Assembly: GCA_000004985.1 (NCBI GenBank)
Contig: GG738865.1
Strand: one strand, 5' to 3'
DNA: 64,000 bases
Source of the DNA: Naegleria gruberi
Taxonomy: Eukaryota
Shown: positions 8,397 to 52,488 of the stretch, one piece after another
How positions within the stretch are numbered: position 1 is the stretch's first letter
Layout of the letters: each line of letters begins with the position of its first letter
The notes under the pieces: model-generated
The model's input: the letters and a program-made list of their open reading frames with translations, nothing else
The model's database searches: none
What the model was told of the DNA's origin: nothing
Translations under genes and position numbers: made by a program

Positions 8397-9776
8397 TCAA
8401 GCAATAAGCCCTTGACTTTGCTTCCACTTTTGACCGTGAGAAGCTACTTGTGTTCTTGATCGTGTCTTGACATACTTTTCAGCAATGAGTTTCCAATTGT
8501 TACCACATGCCTCAAGACCTTCGAGGAAACGTTGATGTTCTTCCTCTGTCCACCATCCCTTATGACTACCATTCTTATTCTTGGCAGACAAATCACCCTT
8601 CACACTCGACTTGAGTCTCAGCTTACCAATCTTTTGTTTCGAGTAATTGTTAGCAATGTCAACTTCTTCATCGTCACCTTCAGATTCTTCACTTGGTGTC
8701 GTGGTATTTTGTTTGTTTCCTCTCTTAATACATGCAGAAGCAACCTTCTTGAGCACTTCAACATTTGGACATGTTGTTGATGAGACACTGGCAGTTGTTG
8801 TCGTTATGGTTGGATTCTTCTTCTGGAGCTCTTCCTTACTACTACTTGTCATTGTGGTTTCACTACTAGAAACACCACTCGAATGATGATCGTTGAATTG
8901 ACTAGGGGATGATGAATTACTACTTTTCACATCTGTGCCAATAATTGAGACATTGGAAGAATGGGAAAATCCAGATTCATCCATCAATACATTACTATTT
9001 GGAACGTTTCTAACTGGGCTCAATACAGGTGGTGCTGTAGTTGTAGTGGCTGTAATTGTTTTACAGGCAATTGGCACTGCACATGTCACTATCTGCTGAC
9101 TTGTGGCATGATTAAAAGCAACAATTCTTCCAGTAGTTGGGGAGGTATTCAAAAGTGGGTGTTAAAGTGGTGTTAAAGTTGGTGGTGGACTATTCACATG
9201 ATCCACTACTTTAGAGTTGGTTGTAAAATAATTTGGCTTGTTTACAGTACCTTCCCAAATGGAGTTTTCTCGATATAGTTGTTGAGGTGCTTGATGGGTT
9301 GGATAAACGGAGAATAACGAGGAGTAACGATTGCCAACAACGACATGATGACTCGTAGACGATGATGCAACAACAGGCATTATTGATTGGCTTGTGGTGG
9401 TGGAGTGAGAAAGGGATGGGAGTTGTTGTGGATGATGTTGCATCATCTGTGGTGGTTGTGTTGAAGAATAATTATTATTACATGATGAGGATTGACTGGT
9501 AGTAGGAATGGCTGTACAGGAAATGGTATTAGAGAAGGCATGTGTTGGTCTGGTTAACAAATTAGGATAGTTTGGTGTTGTTGTGGTTGCAGGATATATA
9601 TCTGAAAAGAGTGAAGAAATGGAAGGTAATTGAATAGTGGCAGAACTATTAGTACTGCTGCCACTGTCTTTTGTCAAATGATTCATTGGCTGAATGTATT
9701 GTTGTTGTTGTTGGCTTGCACTCATGAGTGGATTGGTGGTCATAGTATTCATTCTTGTCATGTTATCTGCCATCAT
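8397..9776 (-). CDS. Myb-like (SHAQKYF-class) DNA-binding protein. Two in-frame ORFs (9162..9776 S/T/Q-rich N-terminal part; 8397..9152 Myb part) separated by a single TAA (9162..9164)
   Basis: Myb repeat WTEEEHQRFLEGLEACGNNWKLIAEKYVKTRSRTQVASHGQKWKQ near the C-terminus. The upstream 204-aa ATG-initiated low-complexity ORF is in the same frame, only 3 codons from the TTG-initiated Myb ORF. No GT..AG intron spans the stop. Confidence 0.55.
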
Positions 9777-13345: not shown

Positions 13346-14695
13346 ATGTTGGGTCAGTCATCATCTTTAAAAAAAATGGCAACTAAAGTAACCGAAACTC
13401 TTGTTGTGCTTTTGTTGTTATTCTTCGCTACTGCTTCTGGCATTAACGCATCATCACCTGCGGAGCCAGCATTCAAAAGTCAATTACGTTCATGTTTTGA
13501 AGCAAATAGAAATACCGAATGTTTGGCCACACAATCATCTTGGTCTTCATGTGGAGGTTCAGTTTATTCTTCATATCAACTTGCACTCTCCATCTCAATG
13601 AATTGTATGAGAAGTGTCTGTGGAAGTCAAAATAGTTTATGTTGCAATACCTATTGTACAATGTATGGTTTATCTGGATATGATCATTCAGTTTGTTTCA
13701 ATAAGTGTTTCAATGGATATACTGGTTCAGTTGTTGGTGCTGCAACTTTGATGAAAACAATCAAGAGTAGTTTGGATACCAATGTTGATTATGTTCCTCC
13801 TGCCACAGCTCAAAAGAAGGACGATGAAACCAAAGTCTATTGTGATATTCCATGTAATTCAGAATTTGCTTTCTATTCCACAACTGGTAAACAACCAAGT
13901 ATTTTAAATGGTGGTTTGAAGGCATTGTTGGCTTCTAATACCAAGACTAATACTTTGGCTGCTAAGAAAAAGCTCATTTCTTCTTGGTCAACCAAGGTTG
14001 GTTCCTCTAAGCCATCATCCTCATCCTCCTCCTCACGTAAGAGCATCAGCAGCATTAAAAGCATCATTGGAAGAAGTAATAGTGGTTACAACAAGGCCAT
14101 TTCAAAGAGCATCTCAAAATACCTTGGCTTCAAACCAGTTAAACAAATTAATAGTGATCTGGTCTATAAGAGACTTGTTAAATTTGTTTCAAGCATTCCA
14201 AGTCTTGGATACATCTTGAGAGGTATTCGTGATAAGAAAACCAGAACCTACCTTACAAGAGGTTACAAATTCATTCAAGCTGCTAGAAAACAAGTCTATC
14301 CACAAAAAGCATTTGCAATCTATGATGGTAAAGTATTGAATGTGAAAGCCACAGTTCAATTGGGTAATCCAGCATTGGTTAAGCAGAGAAGTACCATTTT
14401 CCCAATTCCATTCAATTCATTGACTCCATCTTCACTTTCAAAGAAATCCTTTTTCAATTCCAGTGTTAAACATAATCAAATCTGTACTGGTACAGCTATT
14501 GCCAAAGTGGAATATTATCGTAGATCTCGTATCACTTGTAAAAAGATCAAGTCATGGATTAGTGGAGCTTCAAAGATTAATCCAAAGAATATTTATCAAG
14601 TCAACAAGTTCCTCTTCCTTGTTTATAATCAATGTAAGAAAGCTAAAGCTACTTGTGTTGTTCCATTTGTTGAAGCAATCAAAACAACTGATTAA
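13346..14695 (+). CDS. Secreted cysteine-rich protein, paralogue 1 of a three-member uncharacterised family (likely start at second Met, 13376: MATKVTETLVVLLLLFFATASG)
   Basis: Signal peptide, then a ~10-Cys N-terminal module (SCFEANRNTEC..SSCGGS..MNCMRSVCGSQNSLCCNTYCTMYGLSGYDHSVCFNKCF). A K/S-rich linker follows. The conserved C-terminal 4-Cys module is QICTGT..YYRRSRITCKKIKSW..NQCKKAKATCVVPF. Confidence 0.7.
   Translation: MLGQSSSLKKMATKVTETLVVLLLLFFATASGINASSPAEPAFKSQLRSCFEANRNTECLATQSSWSSCGGSVYSSYQLALSISMNCMRSVCGSQNSLCCNTYCTMYGLSGYDHSVCFNKCFNGYTGSVVGAATLMKTIKSSLDTNVDYVPPATAQKKDDETKVYCDIPCNSEFAFYSTTGKQPSILNGGLKALLASNTKTNTLAAKKKLISSWSTKVGSSKPSSSSSSSRKSISSIKSIIGRSNSGYNKAISKSISKYLGFKPVKQINSDLVYKRLVKFVSSIPSLGYILRGIRDKKTRTYLTRGYKFIQAARKQVYPQKAFAIYDGKVLNVKATVQLGNPALVKQRSTIFPIPFNSLTPSSLSKKSFFNSSVKHNQICTGTAIAKVEYYRRSRITCKKIKSWISGASKINPKNIYQVNKFLFLVYNQCKKAKATCVVPFVEAIKTTD
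13445..13740. repeat. Left arm of a ~300-bp inverted repeat (partner 16740..17035), about 95% identical
   Basis: The N-terminal ~100 mature residues of paralogues 1 and 3 are identical. Shadow ORFs 13473..13661(-) and 16797..16985(+) differ at 3 of 62 residues. Nucleotide differences I could read are synonymous (e.g. TCACCTGCGGAG vs TCTCCAGCGGAA). Confidence 0.65.
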
Positions 14696-14904: not shown

Positions 14905-15894
14905 ATGACATTGTCATCCAAACAAATTGTCGTTGTGTTAATTATTGTTGGATTCTGTGTTTCTTACACATTGGCTTCTTCTGCCAGCGAACCAGCATTC
15001 AAAAGTCAATTACGTTCATGTTTTGAAGGAAACAGAAACACAGAATGCATAGTCAATCAAGGAAGCTGGAATTCTTGTGGTCGTTCAGTTTATTCTTCCT
15101 ATCAATTAGCTGTTTCCATTTCAATGAATTGTATGAGAAGTGTTTGTGGTAGTCAAAATGGTTTATGTTGTAATACTTATTGTTCAATGTTTGGTTTATC
15201 TGGAAGTGATCATTCGAATTGTTTCTCCTCATGTTATAATTCATACAGGCCATCGACAAATGGTGGTTCATCTTTTGGTGGAAATATTCCTGCAGCTAGT
15301 GATGCTTTAACTGGTTCTGTATCTTGTTCTATTCCATGCGCTGCTGCTTTCTCCTTCTATGAAAATAAAGTAGCCGAAAGTGTGGCCAAAAAACCAGCAG
15401 AAGTCAAGACATTCAAAACTTTGGTCAAGAATTTACAATCTGGCAAACCAATCAAAAAATCAAATCCTGGCTACACAATCACCTCTGCCAAGACTTTGTC
15501 AACCAGCAGCCCTAGTTCTGCAACCTATTTCACAGCACTTAAACCAAAAGTTGTCCTGAAGGGAAGTGAACATAATCAAGTCTTACGTACCTCTATTGAA
15601 GAAGCTGTTCCAACAAACTTGGACTCGGCTCAATTTTACAATTCTCAAGTGGCATCCAATCAAATTTGTTCCAATTCAATGAAAGATGTTGTAAAGGTTT
15701 CAATTTTGAAGAATACCAAAATTGAATGTTCTAAATTGTTGCAATGGATTAAGAATGATAAGACAATTGCTCCTGAAAATTTGGAAAATGTTTATAATTT
15801 CATGTTGGTTTTGCATCAAAAGTGTTCTGCTTTGCCAAATAGTAAATGTGTCATGCCAAATGTTGGATCCATCAAGCTCACTAACACTAAATAA
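14905..15894 (+). CDS. Secreted cysteine-rich protein, paralogue 2 (more divergent)
   Basis: Signal peptide (MTLSSKQIVVVLIIVGFCVSYTLASSA). Same N-terminal Cys module (SCFEGNRNTEC..CGSQNGLCCNTYCSMFGLSGSDHSNCFSSC) and C-terminal module (QICSNS..IECSKLLQW..HQKCSALPNSKCVMP). Confidence 0.7.
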   Translation: MTLSSKQIVVVLIIVGFCVSYTLASSASEPAFKSQLRSCFEGNRNTECIVNQGSWNSCGRSVYSSYQLAVSISMNCMRSVCGSQNGLCCNTYCSMFGLSGSDHSNCFSSCYNSYRPSTNGGSSFGGNIPAASDALTGSVSCSIPCAAAFSFYENKVAESVAKKPAEVKTFKTLVKNLQSGKPIKKSNPGYTITSAKTLSTSSPSSATYFTALKPKVVLKGSEHNQVLRTSIEEAVPTNLDSAQFYNSQVASNQICSNSMKDVVKVSILKNTKIECSKLLQWIKNDKTIAPENLENVYNFMLVLHQKCSALPNSKCVMPNVGSIKLTNTK

Positions 15895-15969: not shown

Positions 15970-17124
15970 TTAAAGAGTGTCAGTATTCAAATTAATTCTT
16001 CTAAACATTGGAACAACACATTGTTTAGACTTCTTTGGAATGAGAGATCTACACTTATTATGAACAATCATCATGAATTTGTAAACAGTAAGCAAATTAT
16101 TTGGTGAAATTTCTGAAACTTCCTTCATCCAACGTTGAATCTTGTTACAATTTACTCTAGATCTCTTATAATAGGTAACTTCAACTGTCTTTCCAGTATT
16201 GGCACAGATTTGATTTTTACCAACTTGGCTGCTTTTCAAAACGGGATTCAAAGGGACAACCTTATCAAGTGAAATGTCAAAAACTTGAAGTCTGTCACGA
16301 GTTACTTGAATAACATTGGAAATCATCTTTTTATCAGTTTTTCCTGATGATTTAGAGGTTGATTTAGTGACCTTTCCATTCTTAATAGTTGTGAGTTTAG
16401 TTTTTTTCACAAAAGACGAAATGAAAAGTTTCTTCTTTTTGCCCAATACTGAAACTCCACCATTTCCACTTGCTGTTCCAGTAGTACTATTTGAACCATT
16501 AATTTGAGAAAGGAGAGTTCTCAAGAAATTTCTTTCCTTTCTTGTTGGTTGTTCATTGGCAAAATAAAAAGCATAAGTAGCATCACATGAAACAGAACAT
16601 TTGACAATGGCTTTATCATCAGTGGTGGCACTTTTTGGAACAAAGTCAGAGTTATCATCGAATGGGATGGAAGCATAAGCAATAGAAGTAGAAATTGGTT
16701 TCATCAAAGTTGCAGCAGCAGAAACAACTGAACCAGTATATCCATTGAAACACTTATTGAAACAAACTGAATGATCATATCCAGATAAACCATACATTGT
16801 ACAATAAGTATTGCAACATAAACTATTTTGACTTCCACAAACACTTCTCATACAATTCATTGAAATGGAGAGTGCAAGTTGATATGAAGAATAAACTGAA
16901 CCTCCACATGAAGACCAAGATGATTGTGTGGCTAAACATTCGGTATTTCTATTTGCTTCAAAACATGAACGTAATTGACTTTTGAATGCTGGTTCCGCTG
17001 GAGATGATGCATTGACAAAAGATGAAGATGTGAGAAGGGCTGCCAACAAGACGAAACATGCCAAAACTAGTGGATTGAATCTTGTCATTATTTTTTTTAA
17101 GCTTTCTTCAAAGATGTCACCCAC
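15970..17124 (-). CDS. Secreted cysteine-rich protein, paralogue 3 (inverted orientation; likely start MTRFNPLVLACFVLLAALL at ~17086)
   Basis: N-terminal module identical to paralogue 1 over ~100 aa, then diverged. C-terminal module QICANTGKTVEVTYYKRSRVNCNKIQRW..HNKCRSLIPKKSKQCVVPMF. Confidence 0.7.
   Translation of the reverse strand: MGDIFEESLKKIMTRFNPLVLACFVLLAALLTSSSFVNASSPAEPAFKSQLRSCFEANRNTECLATQSSWSSCGGSVYSSYQLALSISMNCMRSVCGSQNSLCCNTYCTMYGLSGYDHSVCFNKCFNGYTGSVVSAAATLMKPISTSIAYASIPFDDNSDFVPKSATTDDKAIVKCSVSCDATYAFYFANEQPTRKERNFLRTLLSQINGSNSTTGTASGNGGVSVLGKKKKLFISSFVKKTKLTTIKNGKVTKSTSKSSGKTDKKMISNVIQVTRDRLQVFDISLDKVVPLNPVLKSSQVGKNQICANTGKTVEVTYYKRSRVNCNKIQRWMKEVSEISPNNLLTVYKFMMIVHNKCRSLIPKKSKQCVVPMFRRINLNTDTL
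16740..17035. repeat. Right arm of the ~300-bp inverted repeat (partner 13445..13740)
   Basis: See the left-arm entry. The arms are separated by ~3 kb containing paralogue 2. Confidence 0.65.
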
Positions 17125-25150: not shown

Positions 25151-28100
25151 ATGCTTTCACTGAACAGAACACTATCATCATCGATTTTAACTCAATGTAA
25201 TAGGGTTGGCTCTCACACATTGTCTCTATCACACAGAGTGTCGAAAGCTTGTGGAAAATCCAATTTTAAAGTTATTCTTGGGGTGAATAATTATAACACA
25301 TCGGAATTGATAAACTGTGTTATTAAAAACAACAATCAGAGAAATTACACTCTTACACAAAAATTAAATGGAAAGAAGAAGGACGCTACAAATGATGAGG
25401 AAGAGGATGTTGTAGAACTAAAATCAATCACTACCGAAAGTGTTGATTTAAAAAATCAGAAATTTACTCCAATGATGAATCAATATTTCAAAATTAAAGA
25501 AAAACATTCGGATTATTTATTATTATTTAGAATGGGAGATTTTTATGAAATTTTCTTTGAAGATGCTGTTAAAGCTTCACAAGTTTTACATATTACAGTA
25601 TGTTTAATATTAGATTATGAAAGTATTGAATTTATTTAAATTAGTTGACTAAAAGAGGAAAGCATTTGGGACAAGATATTCCAATGTGTGGAATTCCACA
25701 CCATGCATTAGATGCCTATTTACAAAAATTAATTAAGAATGGTGTTGTAGTTGCTATTTGTGATCAAGTAGAGGATCCAGCCGAAGCCAAGAAGAATAAG
25801 AAAATAGTCGAGAGACAAATTACTAGATTGTAAGTATTAATTTGAATTGGAATTCATTACTCAACTAATATAGAGTAACACCAGGAACATTGACAGAGGA
25901 TAGATTTTTGGAAGCAAGTGAACACAATTATTTAGCTGCTATTGGATTGCCAGAAAAATTCTCAACCAATGACGAAAATCATAAGGAGCAACAGGTTACT
26001 CTTTCATGGGTTGAATTATCGACTGGTGAATTTAATTATTTGAATTGTTCCTGTATGTAACAACCTTAATTATTATTTTAATATTTCAAGTTGGTAATTT
26101 ACAATCGGAGTTATTGAGATTGAGTCCAAGTGAAATTTTGATTCCTTCCAACTTTGAATACGTATTCAAGGTAAGACTGGAGGAATACCATGTCACTCTC
26201 AGAAAACCAGCTTCATATCAACACTATGCAAATTTCATTCAAAATCATTTCAAATTGGACAAGCTTTCAAGTTATAGTGGTGTAAGTTATTTAATAATAT
26301 TAATTTCTCATTATCAAATAGTTGGACATAACTACATGTGGAATGATTTTGGACTATGTTAAAGAAACTCAAAAAGGTCAAATGCCAACACTTAGTACAC
26401 CTGAAAAATTCAAAATGGAAAGAAATATGTCTATTGACTTGGCAACCAGAAAAAGTTTGGAACTCACACGGACCCTATCAGGATCTAGGAAGGGAAGCTT
26501 ACTTTCAATTATTGATAAATGTGTAACAGCACCAGGTGCTAGATTATTGTCGAATCGATTGGCCTCACCATTGGCTGTTCCTTCCGAGATTGAGGATAGA
26601 TTGGATTGTGTAGAATATCTCACTGAAGATAAAGTTCTCATTGATCAAATCAGAGACTATCTGAAGAATTGCTACGACATTGAAAGAGCCATTCAAAGAT
26701 TGAGCATGAGCAGAGGTTCACCAAAGGATCTTTTCACAGTTGCAGCAACGGTTTCACAATGTCAACAACTGAAGGAAATTATTTTGGAAAATGAGGCGAG
26801 GAGACATACCAAATTACCAACAGTGTTGGCCAAAGTAGTGGAAGAATTGAATTCGGATGTCCAACTCGAGGCGATGAACGAGATTTTATCCGCCATGAAA
26901 GAGTACGAGGACCTACCTACTTCTGTAAGTGAGGGAGGCTTCATTAGGGTTGGATATTCAACAGAGCTTGACGAATGGCTCAAATTGAGTCAACACAGTG
27001 AAACCCTTATTCAAGATCTCCAAAAGGAATATAAGGACAAGACTGGAATTAGTACATTGAAAATTAAGAATAACAATGTGATGGGTTACTTTGTAGAAAT
27101 TCCAAGCTCACAACGTGATAGAATTCTTCCATTTAAGGAGTTTTCACACAAGCAAACCATGACTAATGTAGTTCGTTTCAAGACTGACAAGCTAGAAGAA
27201 TTGCAAGAAAAACTTGGAAAGGCACAACAAGAAGCCATCGATATGGAGCTGAAAATCTTCTTCCAGCTTCAAAAGAAATTACTAATAATTGCCAAAACAC
27301 TACTCTCCTCTGCTCAATCTATTGCCTCAATTGACTTGTATTCATCTTTGGCTTTGCTGGCAAGAGAGAGAAGCTATACGAGACCTAATGTAACACCATT
27401 CATTGAGTCTGAAGAGTTGGAAAAATCGAAAAAGAAAGTTCCAATCCTCAATATTCAAAAAGGTAGACATCCAATTGTTGAATATGCACAACAAGTCGGA
27501 GGAGCCACCATTGACAAGTCAAAGTTGGGTAAGAATGTAGGATTGACCTTTGTATCCAATGATTGTACAATGTTTAATAATGAGAATAGACTCATGCTTT
27601 TAACAGGTGCAAACATGGCAGGAAAAAGTACATACCTCAGACAGAATGCCCTCATTATTATTTTAGCTCAGATGGGATGTTTTGTTCCAGCTCAAAAGGC
27701 AGAATTTATGGTGGTTGACAAGATTTTCAGTCGTGTTGGTGCCTCTGATAATCTTGCCAATGATCAATCGACATTTATGGTTGAAATGGTTGAGACTGCT
27801 AATATTCTCAATCAAGCAACCAATAAGAGTTTCGTAATTATGGATGAATTAGGAAGAGGAACATCAGTTCTAGAGGGTTTGAGTATTGCCACAGCTGTTA
27901 TTCAACATTTACACAATAAGATTCAATGCAGAGCTCTATTCGCCACTCATTTCCACGAGCTCATTGAGAAGGCAAAGGAATTGAAATTTATGAAACCCTA
28001 CAAGTTGGAAGTACGAGTTAACAAATCCAATAATATCACGTTCACATACAAGATAGTTCCAGATGAGATTATTGATGGACAAAGTGCTGCATCAACTCAT

Positions 28101-28202
28101 TCGTCCTATGCCATTCAAGTTGCTAAATTGGCTGGTGTACCATCTATTGTAACAGATGAGGCAGAAAAGATTTTAGCAAAATTAAAGGCAGAGAGAAAGT
28201 AA
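25151..28202 (+). CDS. msh1: Bacterial-type DNA mismatch repair protein MutS (mitochondrial MSH1-like); approx join(25151..25597,25645..25829,25875..26052,26091..26281,26322..28202)
   Basis: MutS domain I nearly collinear with E. coli MutS ([108 protein letters not shown]). Walker A ([13 protein letters not shown]) and helix-turn-helix motifs are in the last exon. The N-terminal R/S-rich extension looks like a mitochondrial presequence. Four short introns (47-48 nt) with GTATGT/GTAAGT donors. Confidence 0.85.
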
Positions 28203-28476
28203 GGAATGCTCAAAAATCTCTTGGAAAACAGCCGGTAACGTGTCCTTAAAATTATGTGGCTACATTATTGACAGGCGCACTGAAACACACAGAAGAGTGT
28301 CTTTGTCACTTGTCAGGCCTTGTCACTATCATTAAAAAAAATTATCATCACAACTGTGTTATCCAGTTAAAACACATCACAACGATAATCATAAAAACAA
28401 CACCACAACAACAAAACAACTGTAAAACAATAATTAACTACTAGATAACAATAACTACGGACTAAATCACATAAAA

Positions 28477-31400
28477 ATGTCCTCCCTATTCAATCGTTTC
28501 AAAAAGAATAACAGCAATGCAGAGAATAAATTTGAACAACAACGTAACGCCAATCGTAAAACACTACAACCTCAGGATTTGACCTCGACCCAAAGTGAAA
28601 TCAGTGCTCATGACAAGTCGGGTTCACTCTCAATTCCATCAAGTAATACTGCCAGTAGTGGTTCTCTAGCCTATTATGAGGAAGGAGCATCAGTGAATGC
28701 CATGACTCAACTCTCAAACAAAAACAGTAAGAAGGGAGATAACAACAAGGAAAAGATGCCACCACCAGAGGAAATTGTTGCTCAATTTGAAAAGTTGTTG
28801 AAATATCAAGGTATTACACCAACTGAAAAACGATACAAATTGATGATTATGAAACCTTTGGAAGAAAAGTGGAAATTGGTTAAAATTATGCAAAATACAA
28901 AGAAGGAAGCTGATAAATTGCATACCATCAAGGACACTCCTGAATATATTGTACATCGTTTGAAAGATGAACCAACACTTGGTTCAGTTACTGAATTGAT
29001 CAGTCTCTTAAAGGGAGCTAAATCAGAGGATTGGATTCGTAAATTCTTGGATTTACAAGGTTTGGAGTGTTTATTTCAAATACTGGTAGAAAGTTGTGAT
29101 CAACAAATTAGAGAACAGTATGTTTTTGTTAACATTTTCAATAATTTATTGAATGTAACATTATTCAATTGATTATAATCCTTTTTTGGACATTTTTGTA
29201 ACTTTTTCAATATTTGTAATGTCCTCCAATGATTTTTAACACAGAGGTGGTAATATTCACGAAGAATTTTCTGATGATGAAGCACAACCTGAGGAAGAAG
29301 AAAATGAAGAGGAAGAAGATGGACTCGAAGATGAGGAAAAGAAGGAAGAAACTGGTTCCGAACAAGTGGAAACCAAGTCTTTGGATCCAAAGAGTAAACC
29401 ACCTCCACCTATGCTTCCACCAAGAATTGAAACTAAATCAAAGCGTGAAGATCCATACGATGCTCTTCAAGCTGAATGTGTCAGAGCACTTCGTGCATTG
29501 ATGAATACCACTCTTGGTCTTAATGCCTTTTTGCAAAGTAAGGACAAGTCAGTGTTAACTGTCACCAAGATTTTGGATTCCAGAAATATCAAAACCAAAA
29601 CTCAAGTTTTCTTCTTGTTGGCAACTATTTGTAGATTCGAACAAGGTTTTTGGATTGCTATCGATGCTATGAACAAGTACAAGTTGAATAGAAAGGAACG
29701 TGCTAGATTCCAAACCATTGTTCGTTTATTGAAGAAGAAGGTTGAAGTGAGTGATGAAACTATTTTACTCAAAACTTCAATTATTGTTTTCATTAACTCT
29801 TTAATTAATTCTCCACAAGATGCTTCATTGAAGAAACAATTGAGAAAGGAATTTGTTGATCTTAAAATGATTGAAATCAGTGAACAATTGAAAGCTTTGG
29901 ATCTTGACGATACTTTAACAATGCAACTTTCATTCTTCGAAGAGGAAGTTCAAGATATTGAAGATGCTGAAGAGGAGGAAGAAGAGCTAGATCTCGACGC
30001 ATTGGAAGATCCTATGGAAATTCTCAAACTTATTAGAGTTCAATTGGGTGGTTCTCAAGCTTTCGAATATTTCGTTAAAATCCTTCAATACTTTTTAATC
30101 ATTTCCGGTAAATCAAATGAAAAGGAAAAATCAAAGAATATGAATATTCTCTTGACAATGATCAAGAAGGCTGTTGCTTTCAAGGAAGATGGTGGAGTTG
30201 AAGAAGTCAGTGTTAAGGAATTGCAATTAGCTGATCGTGTTGAAACTCAACAACGTAAGATTACACAACTCGAAACTAGATTCTTGAAATTGGCAGAAAT
30301 GTTAAAGACTGGTAAAATTGATGATAAGGTTATTGAAAAATTCATTAGTTTGACATCTAAGGACACAAGAGAAAGCTTTAACAAATCAGTTGAAAGTATG
30401 GATCCTAGTGAGTTACAAGAAGAATTCCTCAAAGATGCCGAAGAATTACTTGTAAAGGTTAAGTCAAAAGGTGGATTTGATTTGGATACTTCAAATGCTC
30501 CAGAAGATTTAAAGAAACACTTGAAGAAACTCGAAACTGAGCTCAAATTTATGACTTATAAGGCCAAACAATTAGAGAAACAATTACAATCTGGAGGTGG
30601 AGGAAAAGGTGGAGGTGGTTCTGGTGGAGGATCAGGTGGAGGCGGCTCAGTAGGTTCAGGAGAAGCAAGCTCTGGTGATTCAGGATCTGAGGTGCCCTTC
30701 AGGTGAAGGTGGTTCAACAGGAGGTGATTCATCTGTTCCATCCATACCAACAATTCCAGTTGCAACTGAAGGCATTCCATTGCCACCTGGTATGGGAGTT
30801 CCTCCACCACCTGGTATGGGAATTCCACCACCACCTGGTATGGGCGGTATTCCACCACCACCAGGATCAGGTATTCCATTGCCACCTGGCGTTCCACCAC
30901 CACCTGGCATGGGAGGAATTCCAATGCCACCTGGAGTTCCTATGCCACCTGGTATGGGTATTCCTGGTATTCCAGGTATTCCACAAGGATACGTTCCACC
31001 AAAATTACCAACCTATAAGAGTACTGCTGTAATGAAGGGTGTCTTTTGGAGTAAGGTACCAGTTCAACAATTGAAGGACTCTATCTGGATTAAGAAGGAT
31101 ATTGTCACTGGATTGGAAGGTATTGAATTGGAAACAACAGAATTGGAAAAGCTCTTTGCTAAGAAGGAATCTATTGTATTGGAAACTAACACAAAGAAAC
31201 CAGAAAAGGTTACCCTCATTGATCCAAAGAAGGCCCAAAACTCTGCCATCGTTCTCGGTTCTATGAGATTGGACCACGATGATATTAAATTATCCATGTT
31301 GAGAATGGATGAAGGTGTTTTGGCTCCAGAAAATATCAAGGCCCTCAAGGACATGGTTCCTACAGCCGATGAAAGACAAGCTCTCAGTGATTATAATGGT

Positions 31401-32567
31401 GATTTCAACATGTTGGGAACAACTGAACAATTCTTGAGTAAGGTCATGGATATTCCAAGACTCGAAGAAAGATTAGAAAGTTGGTTGATCAAACTCAAAT
31501 TCCCTGCCAGTGTTTCCTCAATTGAACCAGATATTGAAACTATCATTTCTTGTTGCAAACAATTACAACAAGGTAAAAAATTCCACAAAGTTTTGCAAGT
31601 CATTTTGGCTATTGGTAACTTTATCAATGGTAACAAGAAGGCAGTTCACGGTTTCCAAATCAATGCCCTTCCAAAGTTGAAGGACACAAAGGCAACAGGT
31701 GCTAAGATTAATATGCTCGATTATATTGTTCAATTTTTGGAGAAGAATCATCCAGAAACTCTCAATTTTGGTGATGACCTTTCTGCTCTTAAGGGTGCTG
31801 AAAGAGTTTCAATTCAAGGTATCACTTCTGAATTGAATGAAATGAAGAATGGTGTCAATTTTGTTGGTAGAGAAATTGAAAAGTCAGATTTAGACACAGA
31901 ATTCGACAAGTTTAGAGAAGTCATGGTTGACTTTTTAGATTTTGCCTCTGAAAAGGTTGAAACATTCGAAAATCAAATTAAGGAAATGCAAACTCAAATT
32001 GAAAAGATTCAAATCTTGTTTGCTGAAGATTCTAAGAAATTCACACCAGAATCTTTCTTTGCTGGTATCAATACTTTCATTACCGACTTTAAATTGGCTC
32101 ATGCTGAAATTTTGAGAAAGAGAGATATCGAAAAGAAGAAACTCGAAAAGGAACAAAAAGACAAGGAAAGACAACAAAAGGTTATGGACTCGAGAAAGAA
32201 GAAAGAAGAAACCAAAAAGATCGAAAGAGAATCAATCTCTGCCCAAACACCAAACGAAGAGGATGGACAACCAGAAGAAAAGGGTGTCCTCGATAAGACA
32301 CTCGATTCACTCATGGATGGTTCTGGTTTCAGAAAAGGAGTTTCTGCCAACAAGAAGAAGAAGGCAGCTCAATTAAATGCAGTCAACCTTATCCAAGAAT
32401 TGGAAACCAAAAAGCTAGGCTCTCCATCTAACGAAGAAAATTCAACAACAACCCCTCAATCACTGGCCTCACCAAAAGCTCAAGATGAACAAATAACAAC
32501 ACCAAGAGGACTTGCAAAAGCTCCAAGTAAGAGAAGACTTAAGAATGGTGGCGATGATGAATTGTAA
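28477..32567 (+). CDS. Diaphanous-related formin (GBD/FH3 - coiled coil - Gly/Ser linker - FH1 polyproline - FH2 - C-terminal basic tail). Intron 29118..29244; unresolved frame change near 30690-30706
   Basis: FH1: IPLPPGMGVPPPPGMGIPPPPGMGGIPPPPGSGIPLPPGVPPPPGMGGIPMPPG. FH2 begins KGVFWSKVPVQQLKDSIWIKKD. ORFs 28477..29172 and 29366..30706 are joined by a 127-nt GTATGT..ACAG intron. The ORF runs in frame 2 up to 30706 and continues in frame 0 from 30654. Confidence 0.8.
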
Positions 32568-32796
32568 ATAAAAAAACTCCCTTAATTAGTTCAATTATAC
32601 AAATAATGAAAATTTCCTTAATAATATCTTATACTTTCCAAAGATATTCATAAAATAGATGCATTGAATATTATCTTTGTTTGGTAGTTGAACAATTATA
32701 TGAGTTTCTTATTAATTTCATAAACCAATCATTAAAAAATGAAAAGACAACGTTCTTTGTCGGATTCATCAGCTTCCTCATCATCAGCATTATCCG

Positions 32797-33129
32797 ATGC
32801 AGAAGGCCCCTCCTACAAAATATGTTTTTGTAGAACAACCAAATGAACAACAGTTGGAATTATTATTGTCTTCTGATGAAGAAGATTATCAAACTTCGGA
32901 GGAGGATTATGAAGATTATTATGATGATCCGTTGACTGATGATGAATTTGATGATGTAGAATATGATTCTGATGGTTCTGGCAATGATTCCGATCCATCA
33001 GACGATTTTTTGGCACAATTGGGTTTACCAATGGGTTTACCAGCTGGATTAGGGTTACCAATCTTTACTGGTGGTACAATTGGCTCAAACTATCCTCAAA
33101 TCTTCCATTTGGTCCATTTGCATCAATGA
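32797..33129 (+). CDS. Small highly acidic ORF (110 aa). Possibly an independent gene or the 5' part of the downstream gene
   Basis: ATG-initiated D/E/Y-rich ORF ending in TGA that overlaps the ATG of ORF 33126..35327 (ATGA). No clean in-phase intron was found. Confidence 0.3.
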   Translation: MQKAPPTKYVFVEQPNEQQLELLLSSDEEDYQTSEEDYEDYYDDPLTDDEFDDVEYDSDGSGNDSDPSDDFLAQLGLPMGLPAGLGLPIFTGGTIGSNYPQIFHLVHLHQ

Positions 33130-35327
33130 GAGAATTTCAAATGCGTGATTTCTTCTTGTTTACTGATGGATTTTTAAAAAGTTATAAAGGAAACTTAGAA
33201 GAACTCAAACAACAGATTGATAGTAGAAATGGAAGAGTTGTAAATAATGCAGAAGCATTCTTTAGAGTAATATTGCTGTCAAGTATGAGTAGACGATATT
33301 GTGAACAATATGAAAAGTACAAATATCTTATGAGTTTGGGAGAGCAAAAAACTGAAGAAGAATGGAAGAGTTTATGCACTACAGATGAGCTTCAACTGTT
33401 CAAAACAGATTCAAAATCCCCAATGTCACCTTCAAAATTTCAGATGTTGAACGCAACTATATACTTGATTTGCACTGAAGATGAGGCAAGAGCGGCCACT
33501 CCACTGTTTACTATGGTAAATTCGTTTACTGATTTTAGTGACCTACCTCATGCAAATATCTTCGCTGAGAAGGGACTTGAGGCCTATTTGAATAATCCAA
33601 GGTCATTGATGATTCCTAGAATGTTTAAGCTTACCAACCCTATTCCTCTTACAAAACACTATGCCATTATGGCAGAATCTGCTGAAAAGAAAGAAGAAAT
33701 ACGTAAATTTTTACTTCAAAACGGTGCACCACATGTAATTGATAATGTGATGGGACCAGAAATTATACTAGACTATAATTCTTTCTGTGTAGTGTATAGT
33801 GATGCTATACCTGACATTATAGCTCATAATGCAGAAACATTGAATTATGAAGCAATTAGCATTGGTATTACGAGTTCTTTTAATGAATTCTACTCATACT
33901 CCTCTGTTGTTCATGCAGTCAATAGTTTGACCAATATTCCACACTCTCCTTTCGTAGAAAAGTACAGACCTTTGCTATTGAAAAACATACCAATTAAGAG
34001 TTTAGTATTATACTACAGAACCCACAGTAGAAAAATGATACCTGAAGATCAATTCCAACAATTTCCAACAATTTCTCCATCTGAAAGAATATCTACCATC
34101 CTTCCTAATGAAGTATTCTTTGTAATCCTAAAATTTTTACCAGTCAATGATATCATGAATAATTTTTCGATTACCTGTAAAAAAGCAAGGAAAATGAGCT
34201 TTGCAGACTACTTGTGGAAGGATATTTGTCTTGCCTATGCTTCCAATTATCCATTCCTGAAACCATTTACAAAAGAGGAAAATCTGACGAGAACCAAGCT
34301 TCCTCACTATTACATATTCAGAAATATCATTAACCCAATTTTAATTGATTACAAATTGGTCACAAACTATATCAATTCTGTATGTAAGGAAGAGCCAGAT
34401 ATTTTCAAACTCGATGTATTCAATAATACTGTAACAACGGCTCTGTACATGGACAGGTATGGCATAGAAGACTCTGAAATCAGTGTTGGTGCAACTAAAA
34501 TGTTTGGAAGTGCTGATCTGCCGCCATGTCTTTACAACACTAAATATGCCACAACTCCTTTATTGTTACAATTGAATATTACCGATTTGAGATCAAAGGG
34601 TATTGGAATACTTTCATTGGAAAATTCTCCATTCAAACACCTGTTCCCACAATCTGGTATCTTGTACTTCTTTAAAGACATGAGCACAGGAAAATCAGAT
34701 GATGGACTTTTATTGCATTATGATGGTGATTTGAGTGAGTTGAAGAGAACAAACGGACAAGAGTTGGCATCAGCTGTTAATTTCTATGAAGCTTTATGTG
34801 TTCCGAAGAGATCTGAAATGGGTTGGAGTAAATCTATTTCCTTAGCTTCTCTAATCACTCCACGTAATAGAGATTTTATGGATGAGTTTGGTGTCGATGA
34901 TTTTGTTTCACAATTGATTCATGCCAAGTTTATTCGTGAAGATGTAACAAAATTGTTTGGAGAATTGGGCTGTTTTACTGAGGGCGAATGGTATGGTGGT
35001 TTTCATGGTGGTTTTAATGATGATCCAGATGATGAAATTTCTCATTCAAGATGCTTAGATAAGTATGTCGATTTGAGACATATGCTTGCTCCAATCTTCC
35101 AGTTGAGTGGAAAATTTAGTATGGGTAGACGAATGGAAGCAATAGGTTTTGCTGCCCTAGTGAATACGAATGATAGACATGCAATGTGGAAGCCATTGAA
35201 TCCAAATATGCCAAATGTCTACACTTTAGATGAATGTTATTGCTCAGATTTTTTCAATCAGGTACCAGCGAAATTCAGAAAAGCCTTCAAAACACTTATT
35301 AAAGAATTTAAACGTGCAGAGTTTTAA
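33126..35327 (+). CDS. Hypothetical 733-aa protein with an internal F-box-like motif
   Basis: Long ATG-initiated ORF. F-box-like segment ISTILPNEVFFVILKFLPVNDIMNNFSITCKKARKM. No other domain recognised. Confidence 0.55.
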   Translation: MREFQMRDFFLFTDGFLKSYKGNLEELKQQIDSRNGRVVNNAEAFFRVILLSSMSRRYCEQYEKYKYLMSLGEQKTEEEWKSLCTTDELQLFKTDSKSPMSPSKFQMLNATIYLICTEDEARAATPLFTMVNSFTDFSDLPHANIFAEKGLEAYLNNPRSLMIPRMFKLTNPIPLTKHYAIMAESAEKKEEIRKFLLQNGAPHVIDNVMGPEIILDYNSFCVVYSDAIPDIIAHNAETLNYEAISIGITSSFNEFYSYSSVVHAVNSLTNIPHSPFVEKYRPLLLKNIPIKSLVLYYRTHSRKMIPEDQFQQFPTISPSERISTILPNEVFFVILKFLPVNDIMNNFSITCKKARKMSFADYLWKDICLAYASNYPFLKPFTKEENLTRTKLPHYYIFRNIINPILIDYKLVTNYINSVCKEEPDIFKLDVFNNTVTTALYMDRYGIEDSEISVGATKMFGSADLPPCLYNTKYATTPLLLQLNITDLRSKGIGILSLENSPFKHLFPQSGILYFFKDMSTGKSDDGLLLHYDGDLSELKRTNGQELASAVNFYEALCVPKRSEMGWSKSISLASLITPRNRDFMDEFGVDDFVSQLIHAKFIREDVTKLFGELGCFTEGEWYGGFHGGFNDDPDDEISHSRCLDKYVDLRHMLAPIFQLSGKFSMGRRMEAIGFAALVNTNDRHAMWKPLNPNMPNVYTLDECYCSDFFNQVPAKFRKAFKTLIKEFKRAEF

Positions 35328-49424: not shown

Positions 49425-49960
49425 TGAGAGATTGAAAGTTGTTAATAAAGTGTTTTTCTTTATAAAAACTGTAACTGTTTTTGATACTGAACATTTCAAA
49501 ATGTTTAAAACACTCATTTTTGAATAAAGTCCAAAAAATATTTGATCATGATTTTCATTATCCATTACAATAAATCTGATTGTGAAATTTCTAATTTCAC
49601 ATTGGCAACTATCTTTTTAGATCTTAAAAATTCGCACAGTTTTCTAGAGTTGACTTTATTTGCAGTAGTTTTTCCAAAAAGTCGAAAATTTAAATGGCCG
49701 CAATTCCGTTGGTCAATTGGATAAATTGGGTAAAAAACAAGTCATTCAAAATCTTTGCAAATTATTCATCCATTCTCATAGATTCTATCAAGCTTGCTCA
49801 GAAAATTGTCGTAAAAAAAGTGTCAACAAATACCGCCGGGGCTGTTTTGTGCAAAAACCACAACACATCATTTCCTAATTGTTTCCAATTTTGATATTAG
49901 ACTTTAAAACCTACCACCATCAATAACATCAAAGAACCATCATATAAAGAAAACACTATA

Positions 49961-52488
49961 TTGTTAATCAGATTGCTTATCAATATGTTGGTCAATTCGT
50001 CGTCTCCATCTTCGGTTCATCCACACAGTAAACTTTTAAATTCATCATCCTCTTCGAGTAATAATAATAACATGACGATTTCTAACAAATCTGCAGTGGC
50101 GAGTCAACCTGTATTCATTAATACTACTTCAACTTCATATTCTGCCTCCTATACGAATCTAAAACAACAACAATCGGCACCAATTTCAATGGCTAACACC
50201 ACAAATAATAATAGCAAACATATTACGAGACAATCCTCCACTCTAACTTCTTATTCATCCTCCAATAATATCAACAACAACAGCAACAATACAAAGATTA
50301 TCAATTCAAAGCCCGTTCTGCAGATCAACTCTACAAATTTTGGCGACAAACTCGCACATAATGTTATTCATCAAACAGAAACATTTAAAACAATACCCAA
50401 CAACACTAATTATTCCCAAATCAATCCAAAAACTCTTTATAGCACCGATTACAATATTCAGTCAACCAGTAACAGTCCACCACTGGCTAACAAGGCAGGC
50501 ACCTCCAAACACAGTAATATTCAAAGCTGTGTGCACCATCAACAACCAAACACTATTTCAAATACAGTGACAAACTCCACCGCACAAAATATCAATAATA
50601 TTAATAGACAAGTCAGGAGTACAAGTAATGGAAGTGATGTCCTTCCATTGAATCTTGGTGTTAACACAATGAGAACAAATAGCAGCAATGGTCAACATAT
50701 TAGGGGGCTTGCAATAAGTACTTCCTCACTAACAACAAACTCCTCAACCAAACTACCTCCTCTTTCCCTTCATCGATTGGAAAAATCTACCTCTGAGTCA
50801 TCATTGGAAAATTTACATAATCACCACCATCAACATGGTGCTGAACCAGCAACACCAAGAGTTGTTAATCTTGACAAGTATTTTAAATTTGCTCAACTAA
50901 TTATGGACGAGGAGGCATGTGAGGTTTTTCTTGAATTTTTGAGAAGGAAACGAAATGAAGAAAACTTGGAGTTTATTCTTCAAGTTTCTGCTCTTAAAAA
51001 GATTCCAACACTAAGTCATGGATATGCTATTGAAATTTTGCAAAGAATTCGTTCTGATTTTCTAACTAACGGCGCCAGTACGAACTGAATGTTAGCAAAC
51101 ATGTCAAATCACTCTCGATTGACAGGATTGATCGCTGTTTACAACAATCAATGCCATCAAGTCATTCTTCACTCAATTTTGCCAGTTCTCCTGTTGATTC
51201 TCTTATCCAATCCTCTTCGCCATCTACTGTTTCGACTCTAACTTATTCAACAACAGCCAATTCTGTGGACAACTCATACGATTCTCCAAGTTTAATATCC
51301 TCTTCCTTTTCCTCATTATCGTTGCTTCACAACTCATCACCAAGAGATCATTCAGAGTGTAGCTCCACATTCACAATGAGTGGAGAAATAATTCCACAAC
51401 AACCTATAACAACGAGTACCATATTGAAAGAGATCGAGTTGGAGGTTAGACTCCAGTTACAGAATGAGTCTTTCAAGGAATTTAAAGCAAGTGACGAGTT
51501 TGAACACTTTTTATTGACAAAAGTGATTGAACAGAGTCAGAATAATAACCCTGTGAATGATCAATCCCCACACAACTCTCCTCATCAATCTGAGACTGTA
51601 AGCTCTTCTAGATCAGACAAGTCTAACTCTTCTATTGGTTCTCCACAGTCCAGTAATTTCTTCTCCAAGATTTTCAAGAAGAAATCTACAACAAGCACTG
51701 CTGTTCAAGAACCAAAATCTGATGAATCAATTACAGATGATGAAACGTCAGTTGGAAGTGGTGAATCAGAATATATTTACAATCCTCAGAATCCTAATGA
51801 TATCACCTTTGTGGAAAATCTTCAGATCAGAAAGTGGAGTAATCAACAAGTGATCAACTTTTTCAAATTCAAGTTGGATCTACCAGAATATACTGATGCT
51901 TTGAAAAAGAATGAAATCAAAGGAATTGATCTTAGCTTATTGAAAAAGGAAGATACTCCAGATCAAGCAGCAGATAAGATTGATACTTCTGATCTTCAAA
52001 AGAAGGTCGATGCACTCTACAAGAAGATAAAGATGGTTAAACTTGGACACAAGAAAAAGCTTCAAAGAGAAGTCAATGAAGCAATAATTGCCTATCAGAA
52101 AAAGCAACAAAAATCCAACAAGATTTCATCTCTTGAACGTCCAAGAAAAGTTTCTGATTCTATTCTTCCAAAATCACAAATCTCCACATCAATGGACGCT
52201 GACTTGACTACGATCATTATCAAGTTGTGGATTCTGCCAATGGATCAGAAACGAGTTTTCACTGTCAAACGTTGTATCAAGCTTGATCGTTTAAAAACAA
52301 TCATTCTCAAGGAAGTTAGTGATATTGTAGAGAAAAAGTTTCCATCTGAAAATCCAACACTTTTAATGAATAATCGAGTCATTAAAACCTCAAAAGGTGA
52401 CTCTCTCACTTCTAATGAAAAACTTTACCAATACCTATGCTCAGAATCTACCAGCAGTCAATTTGTTACTCTAAAGATTGAATTTTAA
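49961..52488 (+). CDS. RGS-domain + SAM-domain protein. Two ORFs (49961..51088, 51151..52488), presumably one gene with an unresolved junction
   Basis: RGS N-terminal half FAQLIMDEEACEVFLEFLRRKRNEENLEFILQVSALKKIPTLSHGYAIEILQRIRSDFL ends at TGA 51086. An RGS C-terminal-like segment (EVRLQLQNESFKEFKASDEFEHFLL) and a SAM-like segment (WSNQQVINFFKFKLDLPEYTDALKKNEIKGIDLSLL) lie in the downstream ORF, which is in a different frame. Confidence 0.55.

What the first reader, a model, noticed from the sequence alone, without database searches (positions are those of the whole stretch)
30640..30710. Frame discontinuity inside the formin between the Gly/Ser linker and FH1
The formin ORF runs in frame 2 up to TGA at 30704..30706 (..SGDSGSEVPFR*). 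The FH1/FH2 ORF opens in frame 0 from 30654 (..QDLRCPSGEGGSTGGDSSVPSIPTIP..). The overlap window is only about 50 nt. The only in-phase GT..AG pairs there give 10-34-nt introns, below the shortest introns in this window (39 nt). Deleting one C from the CCC run at ~30695 gives a clean G/S-rich reading (..DSGSEVPSGEGGS..). This looks like a homopolymer sequencing error, or a genuine frameshift allele of an essential cytoskeletal gene.
Basis: seen in the sequence. Interest (0 to 1): 0.5.

Follow-up and report, generated by a model that had tools for sequence, protein, structure and literature searches.

The report
Private frame break in Naegleria formin
The break in this Naegleria gruberi formin gene comes from four surplus bases found only in this reference assembly, not in a 99%-identical independent contig or in any orthologue, so it is an assembly error or a defective allele and not an intron or recoding signal; it is ordinary.

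Summary
The window is the Naegleria gruberi NEG-M reference scaffold. A Diaphanous-type formin gene (28477-32567, + strand) changes frame between the Gly/Ser linker and FH1. One ORF ends at TGA 30704-06 and the next is open from 30654.

It is not an intron. About 20 introns in the window have GTA[AT]GT donors (one GTAAAT), are at least 38 nt long and are 56-92% A+T (mostly 67% or more). No in-phase GT..AG pair at the junction looks like that.

Orthologues in N. fowleri, Willaertia and three metagenomic relatives read straight through the linker. An independent contig (L005, 99.1% identical) carries one uninterrupted 1053-codon ORF. There the window's TCTGAGGTGCCCTT reads TCTGTCCCTT.

So the lesion is a net +4 nt (AGG plus G), resembling the linker's own AGGTG repeat. 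It is not a miscounted CCC run, because L005 also has CCC.

At least one more 1-nt frame break (RGS gene, about 51076) lies in the same window. An F-box gene and a Myb gene probably carry further defects.

Most likely this is a consensus error at a polymorphic, repeat-rich site (about 0.5). A genuine, sheltered frameshift allele comes second (about 0.38). Only reads or cDNA can decide. Interest is low.

The parts
28477..29117 (+). Formin exon 1. It starts at ATG and holds the N-terminal part of the GTPase-binding domain.
   Evidence: ORF and Pfam Drf_GBD (E 8e-13). The 231-aa ORF product is identical on the independent contig L005.
29118..29244 (+). Intron 1, 127 nt, GTATGT...CACAG, 78% A+T, phase 2.
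   Evidence: Read from the sequence. It is the best in-phase intron with a 6/6 donor. The N. fowleri and L002 genes are split at the same place.
29245..30688 (+). Exon 2, upstream part, in the frame with codon starts at mod 3 = 2. It holds the rest of GBD, FH3/DID, a coiled coil and the Gly/Ser linker (linker from about 30587).
   Evidence: Pfam Drf_FH3 (E 3.4e-21) and Drf_GBD. Alignment to orthologues. Only 2 amino-acid differences from L005, both in the linker.
30689..30695 (+). The lesion. The window reads GAGGTGC where the intact contig reads GTC. The surplus bases are AGG (30690-92) and G (30694), or equivalently AGGT plus G>T. The net +4 nt shifts the frame by +1.
   Evidence: Whole-contig alignment of L005 to the window. 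Sequences side by side. Codon usage turns rare in the old frame here: GTG 13%, CCC 4%, AGG 14% of their synonymous sets.
30704..30706 (+). Premature TGA that ends the shifted reading ..SEVPFR*.
30696..32567 (+). Exon 2, downstream part, in the frame with codon starts at mod 3 = 0 (open from 30654). It holds the end of the linker, FH1 (about 30774-30990), FH2 (about 31011-32093), a DAD-like motif GVLDKTLDSLMDGSGFRK (32283-32336) with a basic cluster (32349-32372), and the stop at 32565-67.
   Evidence: Pfam FH2 (E 7.8e-91, profile 4-372/372). Motif coordinates. No amino-acid difference from L005 in FH2 or the C-terminus.
30590..30990 (+). Array of short degenerate direct repeats. The linker has 12-15-nt GGTGGAGG-type units and FH1 has 24-27-nt units. 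This is the indel-prone context of the lesion. A 9-nt in-frame indel (GIP unit) separates the window from L005 at 30956.
   Evidence: the repeat finder families D1-D6. Differences between the window and L005 cluster here.

Best explanation
The gene is an ordinary single-polypeptide Diaphanous-related formin: GBD, FH3, coiled coil, Gly/Ser linker, FH1, FH2 and a DAD-like tail. It has two exons. In this particular sequence, the N. gruberi NEG-M reference scaffold, the repeat-rich and hypervariable linker carries 4 surplus bases. These shift the reading frame by +1 and expose a TGA 10 nt further on.

The surplus is private to this assembly. I think it most likely arose when the assembly consensus was built at a site where alleles differ by small indels. 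One route is a real in-frame AGG insertion plus one spurious G. In that case the organism makes the full-length, roughly 1320-aa formin, and nothing unusual happens at the RNA or protein level.

Shown: the frame break, the exact difference from an intact conspecific sequence, the absence of an intron, and the absence of the break in relatives. Inferred: that the surplus is an artefact and not a true allele.
For: 1. Source. The window is N. gruberi NEG-M. Four ORF products are identical to RefSeq proteins on an 820,293-bp scaffold.
2. Intact conspecific sequence. Contig L005 (ENA ERZ929261, 6509 nt, 99.1% identical over window 26179-32668) has one ORF of 1053 codons through the junction. It reads TCT GTC CCT TCA GGT (S V P S G) where the window reads TCT GAG GTG CCC TTC AGG TGA.
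3. Ancestral state. The L005 reading matches the outgroup L002 (..SGNVPT..), so L005 is ancestral.
4. Orthologues. All read through. N. fowleri has ORF 6731-10129 in L003. The metagenomic Naegleria relative has ORF 3307-6639 in L002. Willaertia and two other relatives also read through. tblastx shows the relatives stay in one frame while the window switches at about 30690-30697.
5. No decay. Both halves are otherwise open (489 and 638 codons). Against L005 the folded domains differ only by synonymous changes.
6. Other defects in the same 64 kb.
   - The RGS gene lacks 1 nt near GGCGCCAG (51071-78). Adding one base raises the Pfam RGS score from 24 bits (profile 2-62) to 47.5 bits (profile 1-93).
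   - An F-box gene probably has an indel near 33095-33125.
   - A Myb gene has an in-frame TAA.
   That many broken conserved genes in about 25 genes fits imperfect consensus better than biology.
7. Context. The site lies in short direct repeats and is the local hot spot of differences between the two genomes.
Against: - The difference from the intact sequence is not a single miscalled base. It is a net +4 nt, and it resembles the linker's own AGGTG motif. That looks like replication slippage or a templated insertion, which would be a real mutation.
- Under the error model two events must sit 1 nt apart: a real 3-nt indel and a spurious G.
- Naegleria is described as a heterozygous diploid (PMC9928731), so a defective allele could persist.
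- I could not see reads, quality values or cDNA.
- L005 is 0.9% diverged. It shows what the species has, not what NEG-M has.
Confidence: 0.5

Rival explanations
1. The frameshift is a genuine allele of strain NEG-M. A 4-nt slippage or templated insertion (T replaced by AGGTG) occurred in the repeat-rich linker. It truncates the protein after GBD-FH3-coiled coil at about 700 aa. The allele is tolerated because a second, intact allele and 13 other formins exist. The assembler happened to pick this allele.
For: - The change is complex, a net +4 nt that matches the local AGGTG repeat. This is unlike a typical base-calling error.
- Natural small indels are common between the window and the ENA strain: 10, 5 and 1 nt in non-coding DNA, 9 nt in FH1, and one codon in another gene.
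- Naegleria is described as a heterozygous diploid (PMC9928731).
- N. gruberi is reported to have 14 formins (PMC7594500).
- No N. gruberi protein model for this locus came back from two protein searches. Neighbouring RefSeq proteins are in the collection.
Against: - There is no other sign of decay. Only synonymous differences occur in the folded domains on both sides.
- At least one more frame break, and probably two further defects, lie in the same 64 kb. As true alleles they would imply an implausible load of broken conserved genes.
- The intact state is present in a 99.1%-identical genome.
Confidence: 0.38
2. A short or non-canonical spliceosomal intron restores the frame. Candidates are 30675-30702 (28 nt), 30650-30683 (34 nt), 30654-30702 (49 nt) or one of the 46-163-nt GT..AG pairs.
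For: About 55 in-phase, stop-free GT..AG pairs exist. GTAGGT at 30650 matches 5 of 6 donor positions. Introns as short as 38-47 nt are common in this window.
Against: - All of the roughly 20 well-supported introns in the window have GTA[AT]GT donors (one GTAAAT). They are at least 38 nt long and 56-92% A+T, mostly 67% or more.
- Junction candidates have donors GTGGAG, GTGGTT, GTTCTG, GTTCAG or GTGATT. By direct count the 34-nt candidate is about 50% A+T.
- The only 5/6 donor gives introns of 34 nt or less. That donor is GTCGGT in L005.
- In L005 the same bases are translated in frame as linker.
- No relative has an intron here.
Confidence: 0.03
3. Programmed +1 ribosomal frameshifting at CCC_UUC_AGG_UGA. 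Either peptidyl-tRNA-Pro slips from CCC to CCU, or the shift happens at the rare AGG before UGA. This would yield the full-length formin from the sequence as assembled.
For: The required shift is +1. The last codons of the old frame are rare (CCC 4%, AGG 14% of synonymous use) and are followed by UGA. This is superficially reminiscent of +1 sites, a resemblance I recall and did not test.
Against: A programmed site should be conserved. The conspecific contig, N. fowleri, a second Naegleria lineage and Willaertia all encode the protein in one frame. The site lies in a non-conserved low-complexity linker. No stimulatory element was examined or is evident.
Confidence: 0.02
4. The gene is functionally split. 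The regulatory half (GBD-FH3-CC) and the catalytic half (FH1-FH2-DAD, starting at an internal ATG such as 30792) are made as separate proteins.
For: Both ORFs are long and intact. An in-frame ATG exists at 30792.
Against: There is no promoter, spacer or start context between the ORFs, which overlap by 53 nt. The first ATG lies inside FH1. All relatives, including a 99.1%-identical genome, have the fused form. DID-DAD autoinhibition in this family normally operates within one chain (established knowledge of Diaphanous-related formins).
Confidence: 0.03

Closest known systems
Diaphanous-related / DAAM-like formins; closest protein is N. fowleri FDP41_010637 (P0001, 1321 aa)
   Same: Same domain order: Drf_GBD, Drf_FH3, coiled coil, linker, FH1, FH2 and a DAD-like tail. 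About 70% amino-acid identity over the full length once the frame is repaired. Same length (1320 against 1321 aa). Same neighbour (MutS homologue upstream) and same position of intron 1.
   Different: In this assembly the ORF is broken in the linker. The linker itself is Gly/Ser-rich here and Asn/Thr-rich in N. fowleri.
Consensus or indel errors in draft whole-genome assemblies of heterozygous organisms
   Same: An isolated frame break in an otherwise intact, conserved gene. It sits in a repeat-rich polymorphic spot and is absent from an independent sequence of the same species. There is at least one more such break nearby.
   Different: The difference is a net 4 nt and not a single base. No read-level evidence is available here.
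Heterozygous loss-of-function indel alleles in low-complexity coding repeats (replication slippage)
   Same: A small insertion that resembles the neighbouring repeat unit AGGTG. The region shows other natural indels, such as the 9-nt GIP unit in FH1.
   Different: Not shown to exist in the organism. Several other broken genes in the same window argue for artefact.
Programmed +1 ribosomal frameshift sites (for example antizyme, or yeast Ty1 CUU_AGG_C; recalled from knowledge, not tested)
   Same: A +1 shift is needed. Rare codons and a stop codon sit at the end of the zero frame.
   Different: Not conserved in any relative, including a 99.1%-identical genome. No known heptamer is present. The site lies in a variable linker.

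Membership tests
Formin (FH2 protein), Diaphanous-related type | FH2 domain | tested here: met
   Pfam PF02181, E 7.8e-91, profile 4-372 of 372.
Formin (FH2 protein), Diaphanous-related type | Proline-rich FH1 immediately upstream of FH2 | tested here: met
   IPLPPGMGVPPPPGMGIPPPPGMGGIPPPPG.. at 30774-30990. 24-27-nt repeat units.
Formin (FH2 protein), Diaphanous-related type | N-terminal GBD and FH3/DID | tested here: met
   Pfam Drf_GBD (E 8e-13 and 5.9e-09) and Drf_FH3 (E 3.4e-21).
Formin (FH2 protein), Diaphanous-related type | C-terminal DAD | tested here: inconclusive
   GVLDKTLDSLMDGSGFRK followed by NKKKK (32283-32372) resembles the DAD core plus basic region by eye. No Pfam hit even at E up to 10.
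Formin (FH2 protein), Diaphanous-related type | Regulatory and catalytic halves on one polypeptide | tested here: not met
   Not met in the window as assembled: TGA at 30704-06 and a frame change. Met in L005, L002, L003 and Willaertia.
Spliceosomal intron of N. gruberi | Donor GTA[AT]GT (rarely GTAAAT), length at least 38 nt, A+T-rich | tested here: not met
   About 20 window introns fit. No junction candidate does. The only 5/6 donor (GTAGGT at 30650) gives introns of 34 nt or less.
Spliceosomal intron of N. gruberi | The segment is not translated in relatives | tested here: not met
   The same bases are in-frame coding linker in L005. No relative has an intron here.
Programmed ribosomal frameshift | Shift site and two-frame arrangement conserved in relatives | tested here: not met
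   All relatives, including the 99.1%-identical L005, have a single frame.
Programmed ribosomal frameshift | Full-length product made from the shifted mRNA | not testable with these tools
   Needs a protein or reporter assay.
Assembly or sequencing error | The lesion is absent from an independent sequence of the same species | tested here: met
   L005 has an intact ORF of 1053 codons.
Assembly or sequencing error | Reads of the sequenced strain disagree with the consensus | not testable with these tools
   No access to NEG-M traces or reads.
Pseudogene | Further disabling mutations or relaxed constraint | tested here: not met
   Both halves are open for 489 and 638 codons. Differences from L005 in the folded domains are all synonymous. 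The sample is small, about 10 sites.

The most novel reading that the evidence does not exclude
The 4-nt surplus is real in NEG-M, and the full-length formin is still made from this allele by +1 ribosomal frameshifting at CCC_UUC_AGG_UGA. That would be a recently arisen, strain-specific recoding event in a heterolobosean nuclear gene.
Probability: 0.02. Interest if true: 0.6.

Novelty: already known. Interest (0 to 1): 0.1.

Why it matters
It matters little for biology. A small indel in a low-complexity linker, whether artefact or sheltered allele, is a familiar thing.

The practical value is for annotation. The N. gruberi orthologue of N. fowleri FDP41_010637 is a complete GBD-FH3-FH1-FH2 formin. 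It should be modelled as one protein of about 1320 aa. No N. gruberi model for it came back from my protein searches, so formin counts for this species may miss or truncate it.

The same 64 kb holds at least one more 1-nt frame break (RGS gene) and probably two further defects. Gene models from this reference should therefore be checked against independent sequence before absences or truncations are interpreted.

Tried and rejected
- Intron hypothesis. I enumerated all in-phase stop-free GT..AG pairs and compared them with the window's own introns. Rejected.
- C-homopolymer miscount. It restores the frame, but L005 keeps CCC. Rejected as the specific lesion.
- Looking for the reference annotation's own model.
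  - Two protein searches returned no N. gruberi protein. The second also failed to re-list N. fowleri, so recall of that tool is imperfect and this absence is weak evidence.
  - Exact look-ups of the truncated N-terminal product and of the FH1-FH2 ORF from ATG 30792 found nothing.
  - The L005 protein is not in the clustered collection.
  - N. gruberi gene positions are not in the contig index.
- Independent sequence for the RGS, F-box and Myb defects. Look-ups failed. L004 ends before the RGS gene.
- JGI metagenome scans for either junction variant, or for relatives of the linker region, found nothing.
- Literature. The project accession PRJEB11402 is not in the library. Supplements of PMC7594500 are not held. 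The N. gruberi genome paper is not held.
- Pfam did not detect a DAD.

Full report
WHAT THE SEQUENCE SHOWS

The finding is accurate at its coordinates. An ORF with codon starts at position mod 3 = 2 runs from 29245 (after an intron) to TGA at 30704-30706. It ends ..GGGGSVGSGEASSGDSGSEVPFR*. A second ORF with codon starts at mod 3 = 0 is open from 30654 to 32567. It reads ..SGEGGSTGGDSSVPSIPTIPVATEGIPLPPGMG...

Pfam finds Drf_GBD in the ORF 28477-29172. It finds Drf_GBD plus Drf_FH3 in the first long ORF. It finds a complete FH2 (E 7.8e-91) in the second.

The gene has a 127-nt intron at 29118-29244 (GTATGT..CACAG) between exon 1 and exon 2. So this is one Diaphanous-type formin gene, 28477-32567, whose second exon changes frame by +1 within a 53-nt overlap.

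WHERE THE WINDOW COMES FROM

Four ORF products of the window are identical to RefSeq proteins of Naegleria gruberi on an 820,293-bp scaffold. They are XP_002677707, XP_002677806, XP_002677711 and XP_002677701. The window is therefore the NEG-M reference assembly. G+C is about 34%.

NOT AN INTRON

I listed every in-phase, stop-free GT..AG pair around the junction. This is because GGT codons in the linker supply many GTs.

I then collected the window's own introns from ORF junctions:
- About 20 introns were found.
- All have GTAAGT or GTATGT donors, except one with GTAAAT.
- Lengths run from 38 nt upward (38, 40, 43, 44, 44, 45, 46, 47, 47, 50, and longer).
- A+T is 56-92%, mostly 67% or more.

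At the junction the donors are GTGGAG, GTGGTT, GTTCTG, GTTCAG and GTGATT. The single 5/6 donor is GTAGGT at 30650. Its in-phase acceptors give introns of 34 nt or less, and the 34-nt candidate is about 50% A+T by direct count. The sequence there is ordinary Gly/Ser coding repeat.

RELATIVES READ STRAIGHT THROUGH

With one base removed, the protein is 1320 aa. It aligns end to end with several relatives, and every one is a single chain across the linker:
- N. fowleri FDP41_010637 (1321 aa, about 70% identity)
- a Willaertia magna protein
- three metagenomic heterolobosean proteins

At the DNA level, N. fowleri has one ORF from the start of exon 2 to the stop (L003 6731-10129). A second Naegleria lineage has the same arrangement (L002 3307-6639). 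Both have the same MutS neighbour upstream. tblastx shows these relatives staying in one frame while the window switches frame at about 30690-30697.

THE DECISIVE COMPARISON

The exon-1 ORF product (231 aa) has an exact match on an ENA contig. This is L005 (ERZ929261, run ERR1078381, 6509 nt). L005 aligns to window 26179-32668 at 99.1% identity. It is a different strain or haplotype of the same species. Two other contigs of that assembly match the window at about 99%.

On L005 the gene caller found one ORF of 1053 codons. It runs from the ATG equivalent to window 29411 to the formin stop.

At the junction L005 reads ..GGT GAT TCA GGA TCT GTC CCT TCA GGT GAA GGT GGT TCA.. (G D S G S V P S G E G G S). 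The window reads ..GGT GAT TCA GGA TCT GAG GTG CCC TTC AGG TGA. The window therefore has a net 4 surplus bases. These are AGG at 30690-92 and G at 30694, or equivalently AGGT plus G>T.

L005 has CCC too, so the CCC run is not miscounted. The L005 state (S-x-V-P) matches the outgroup L002 (..SGNVPT..) and is therefore ancestral. The surplus resembles the linker's own AGGTG repeat unit. Codon usage agrees that the old frame stops being real here. GTG, CCC and AGG make up 13%, 4% and 14% of their synonymous sets, whereas the new frame uses common codons from CCT onward.

STATE OF THE REST OF THE GENE

Against L005, the folded domains (GBD, FH3, coiled coil, FH2, C-terminus) differ only by synonymous substitutions. 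All amino-acid differences lie in the linker and FH1: G/S, S/N, M/A and a GIP unit. There are no further stops or frame breaks. So the gene is not a decayed pseudogene. The power is low, about 10 sites.

ERROR OR ALLELE?

This cannot be settled without reads.

For a consensus error:
- The same 64 kb contains a second frame break inside a conserved domain. The RGS gene changes frame at 51070-51088 with no possible intron. Adding one base near GGCGCCAG extends the Pfam RGS match from profile 2-62 (24 bits) to 1-93 (47.5 bits).
- An acidic ORF (32797-33129) ends on the ATG of the F-box ORF. Its G/L/P-rich motif continues in the other frame, and a distant homologue has an acidic N-terminus fused to the same domain.
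- A Myb gene has an in-frame TAA at 9159-9161.
- Three or four broken conserved genes among about 25 is far more than a viable genome should carry on one haplotype. A shared technical cause is more economical.
- The formin site is also the local hot spot of differences between the two genomes, and it lies in short repeats. Consensus building is fragile in such places.

For a true allele:
- The change is a net 4 nt and looks templated, which is unlike a base-calling slip.
- Natural small indels are frequent between the two genomes.
- Naegleria is described as a heterozygous diploid (PMC9928731).
- 14 formins are reported for N. gruberi (PMC7594500), so one bad allele could be tolerated.

I put the error at about 0.5 and the true allele at about 0.38.

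OTHER READINGS

A programmed +1 frameshift at CCC_UUC_AGG_UGA is formally possible, but it is contradicted by the lack of conservation even in the 99.1%-identical genome. A functional split into two proteins lacks any start context, and no relative shows it.

COMPARISON WITH WHAT IS KNOWN, AND VERDICT

The gene is a typical Diaphanous-related or DAAM-like formin. It is the orthologue of a named N. fowleri gene. The DAD is seen only by eye, with no Pfam hit. The frame break is a familiar kind of defect. Nothing here is new in kind.

The useful outcome is a corrected gene model and a warning about consensus quality in this part of the reference. No N. gruberi protein for this locus was returned by two searches. 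That tool's recall was imperfect, because the second search also missed N. fowleri, so absence of a reference model is only suggested.

Noticed in passing
window 49901-52488 (+), break at about 51070-51088: An RGS/SAM-domain gene changes frame inside the RGS domain. One base appears to be missing near the palindrome GGCGCCAG. Adding one base doubles the Pfam RGS score and extends the match from profile 2-62 to 1-93. No intron can explain it.
   Followed up: yes
window 32797-33129 and 33126-35327 (+): An acidic 110-aa ORF ends with a TGA that overlaps the ATG of a 733-aa F-box ORF. A G/L/P-rich motif continues in the other frame. A distant homologue (P0048) has an acidic N-terminus fused to the same conserved start. 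This is probably a third small indel, near 33095-33125.
   Followed up: partly
window 9159-9161 (- strand), between ORFs 9782-9162 and 9161-8397: A single in-frame TAA interrupts a Ser/Thr/Gln-rich ORF that ends in a Myb DNA-binding domain. No canonical intron spans it.
   Followed up: partly
L001, L004, L005 (ENA ERZ929261, run ERR1078381, project PRJEB11402, labelled metagenome): This public 'metagenome' assembly contains contigs 98.6-99.1% identical to the N. gruberi NEG-M reference. It therefore holds a second N. gruberi strain or haplotype that can be used to check reference gene models.
   Followed up: partly
window 30956 (FH1) and 30547-30817: The window and L005 differ by a 9-nt in-frame indel (one GIP unit) in FH1. 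SNPs cluster in the linker and FH1, whereas 29084-30546 has none. The linker and FH1 are hypervariable within the species.
   Followed up: yes
window 13346-14695 (+), 14905-15894 (+), 15970-17124 (-): Three neighbouring paralogues encode signal-peptide-like, Cys-rich proteins that share an N-terminal domain (..SSPAEPAFKSQLRSCFEANRNTEC..). They are 55-57% identical overall, and the N-terminal domain of the first and third is nearly identical. The middle one carries the RefSeq name 'nucleoporin', which looks doubtful.
   Followed up: partly
window 25598-26321 (+), MutS homologue: Four very short introns in a row (47, 44, 38 and 40 nt; 77-85% A+T). The 38-nt one at 26053-26090 is the shortest I found in the window.
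   Followed up: partly
window 5545-5603 (+): A likely 59-nt intron with a GTAAAT donor. It is the only intron in the window whose donor departs from GTA[AT]GT.
   Followed up: partly
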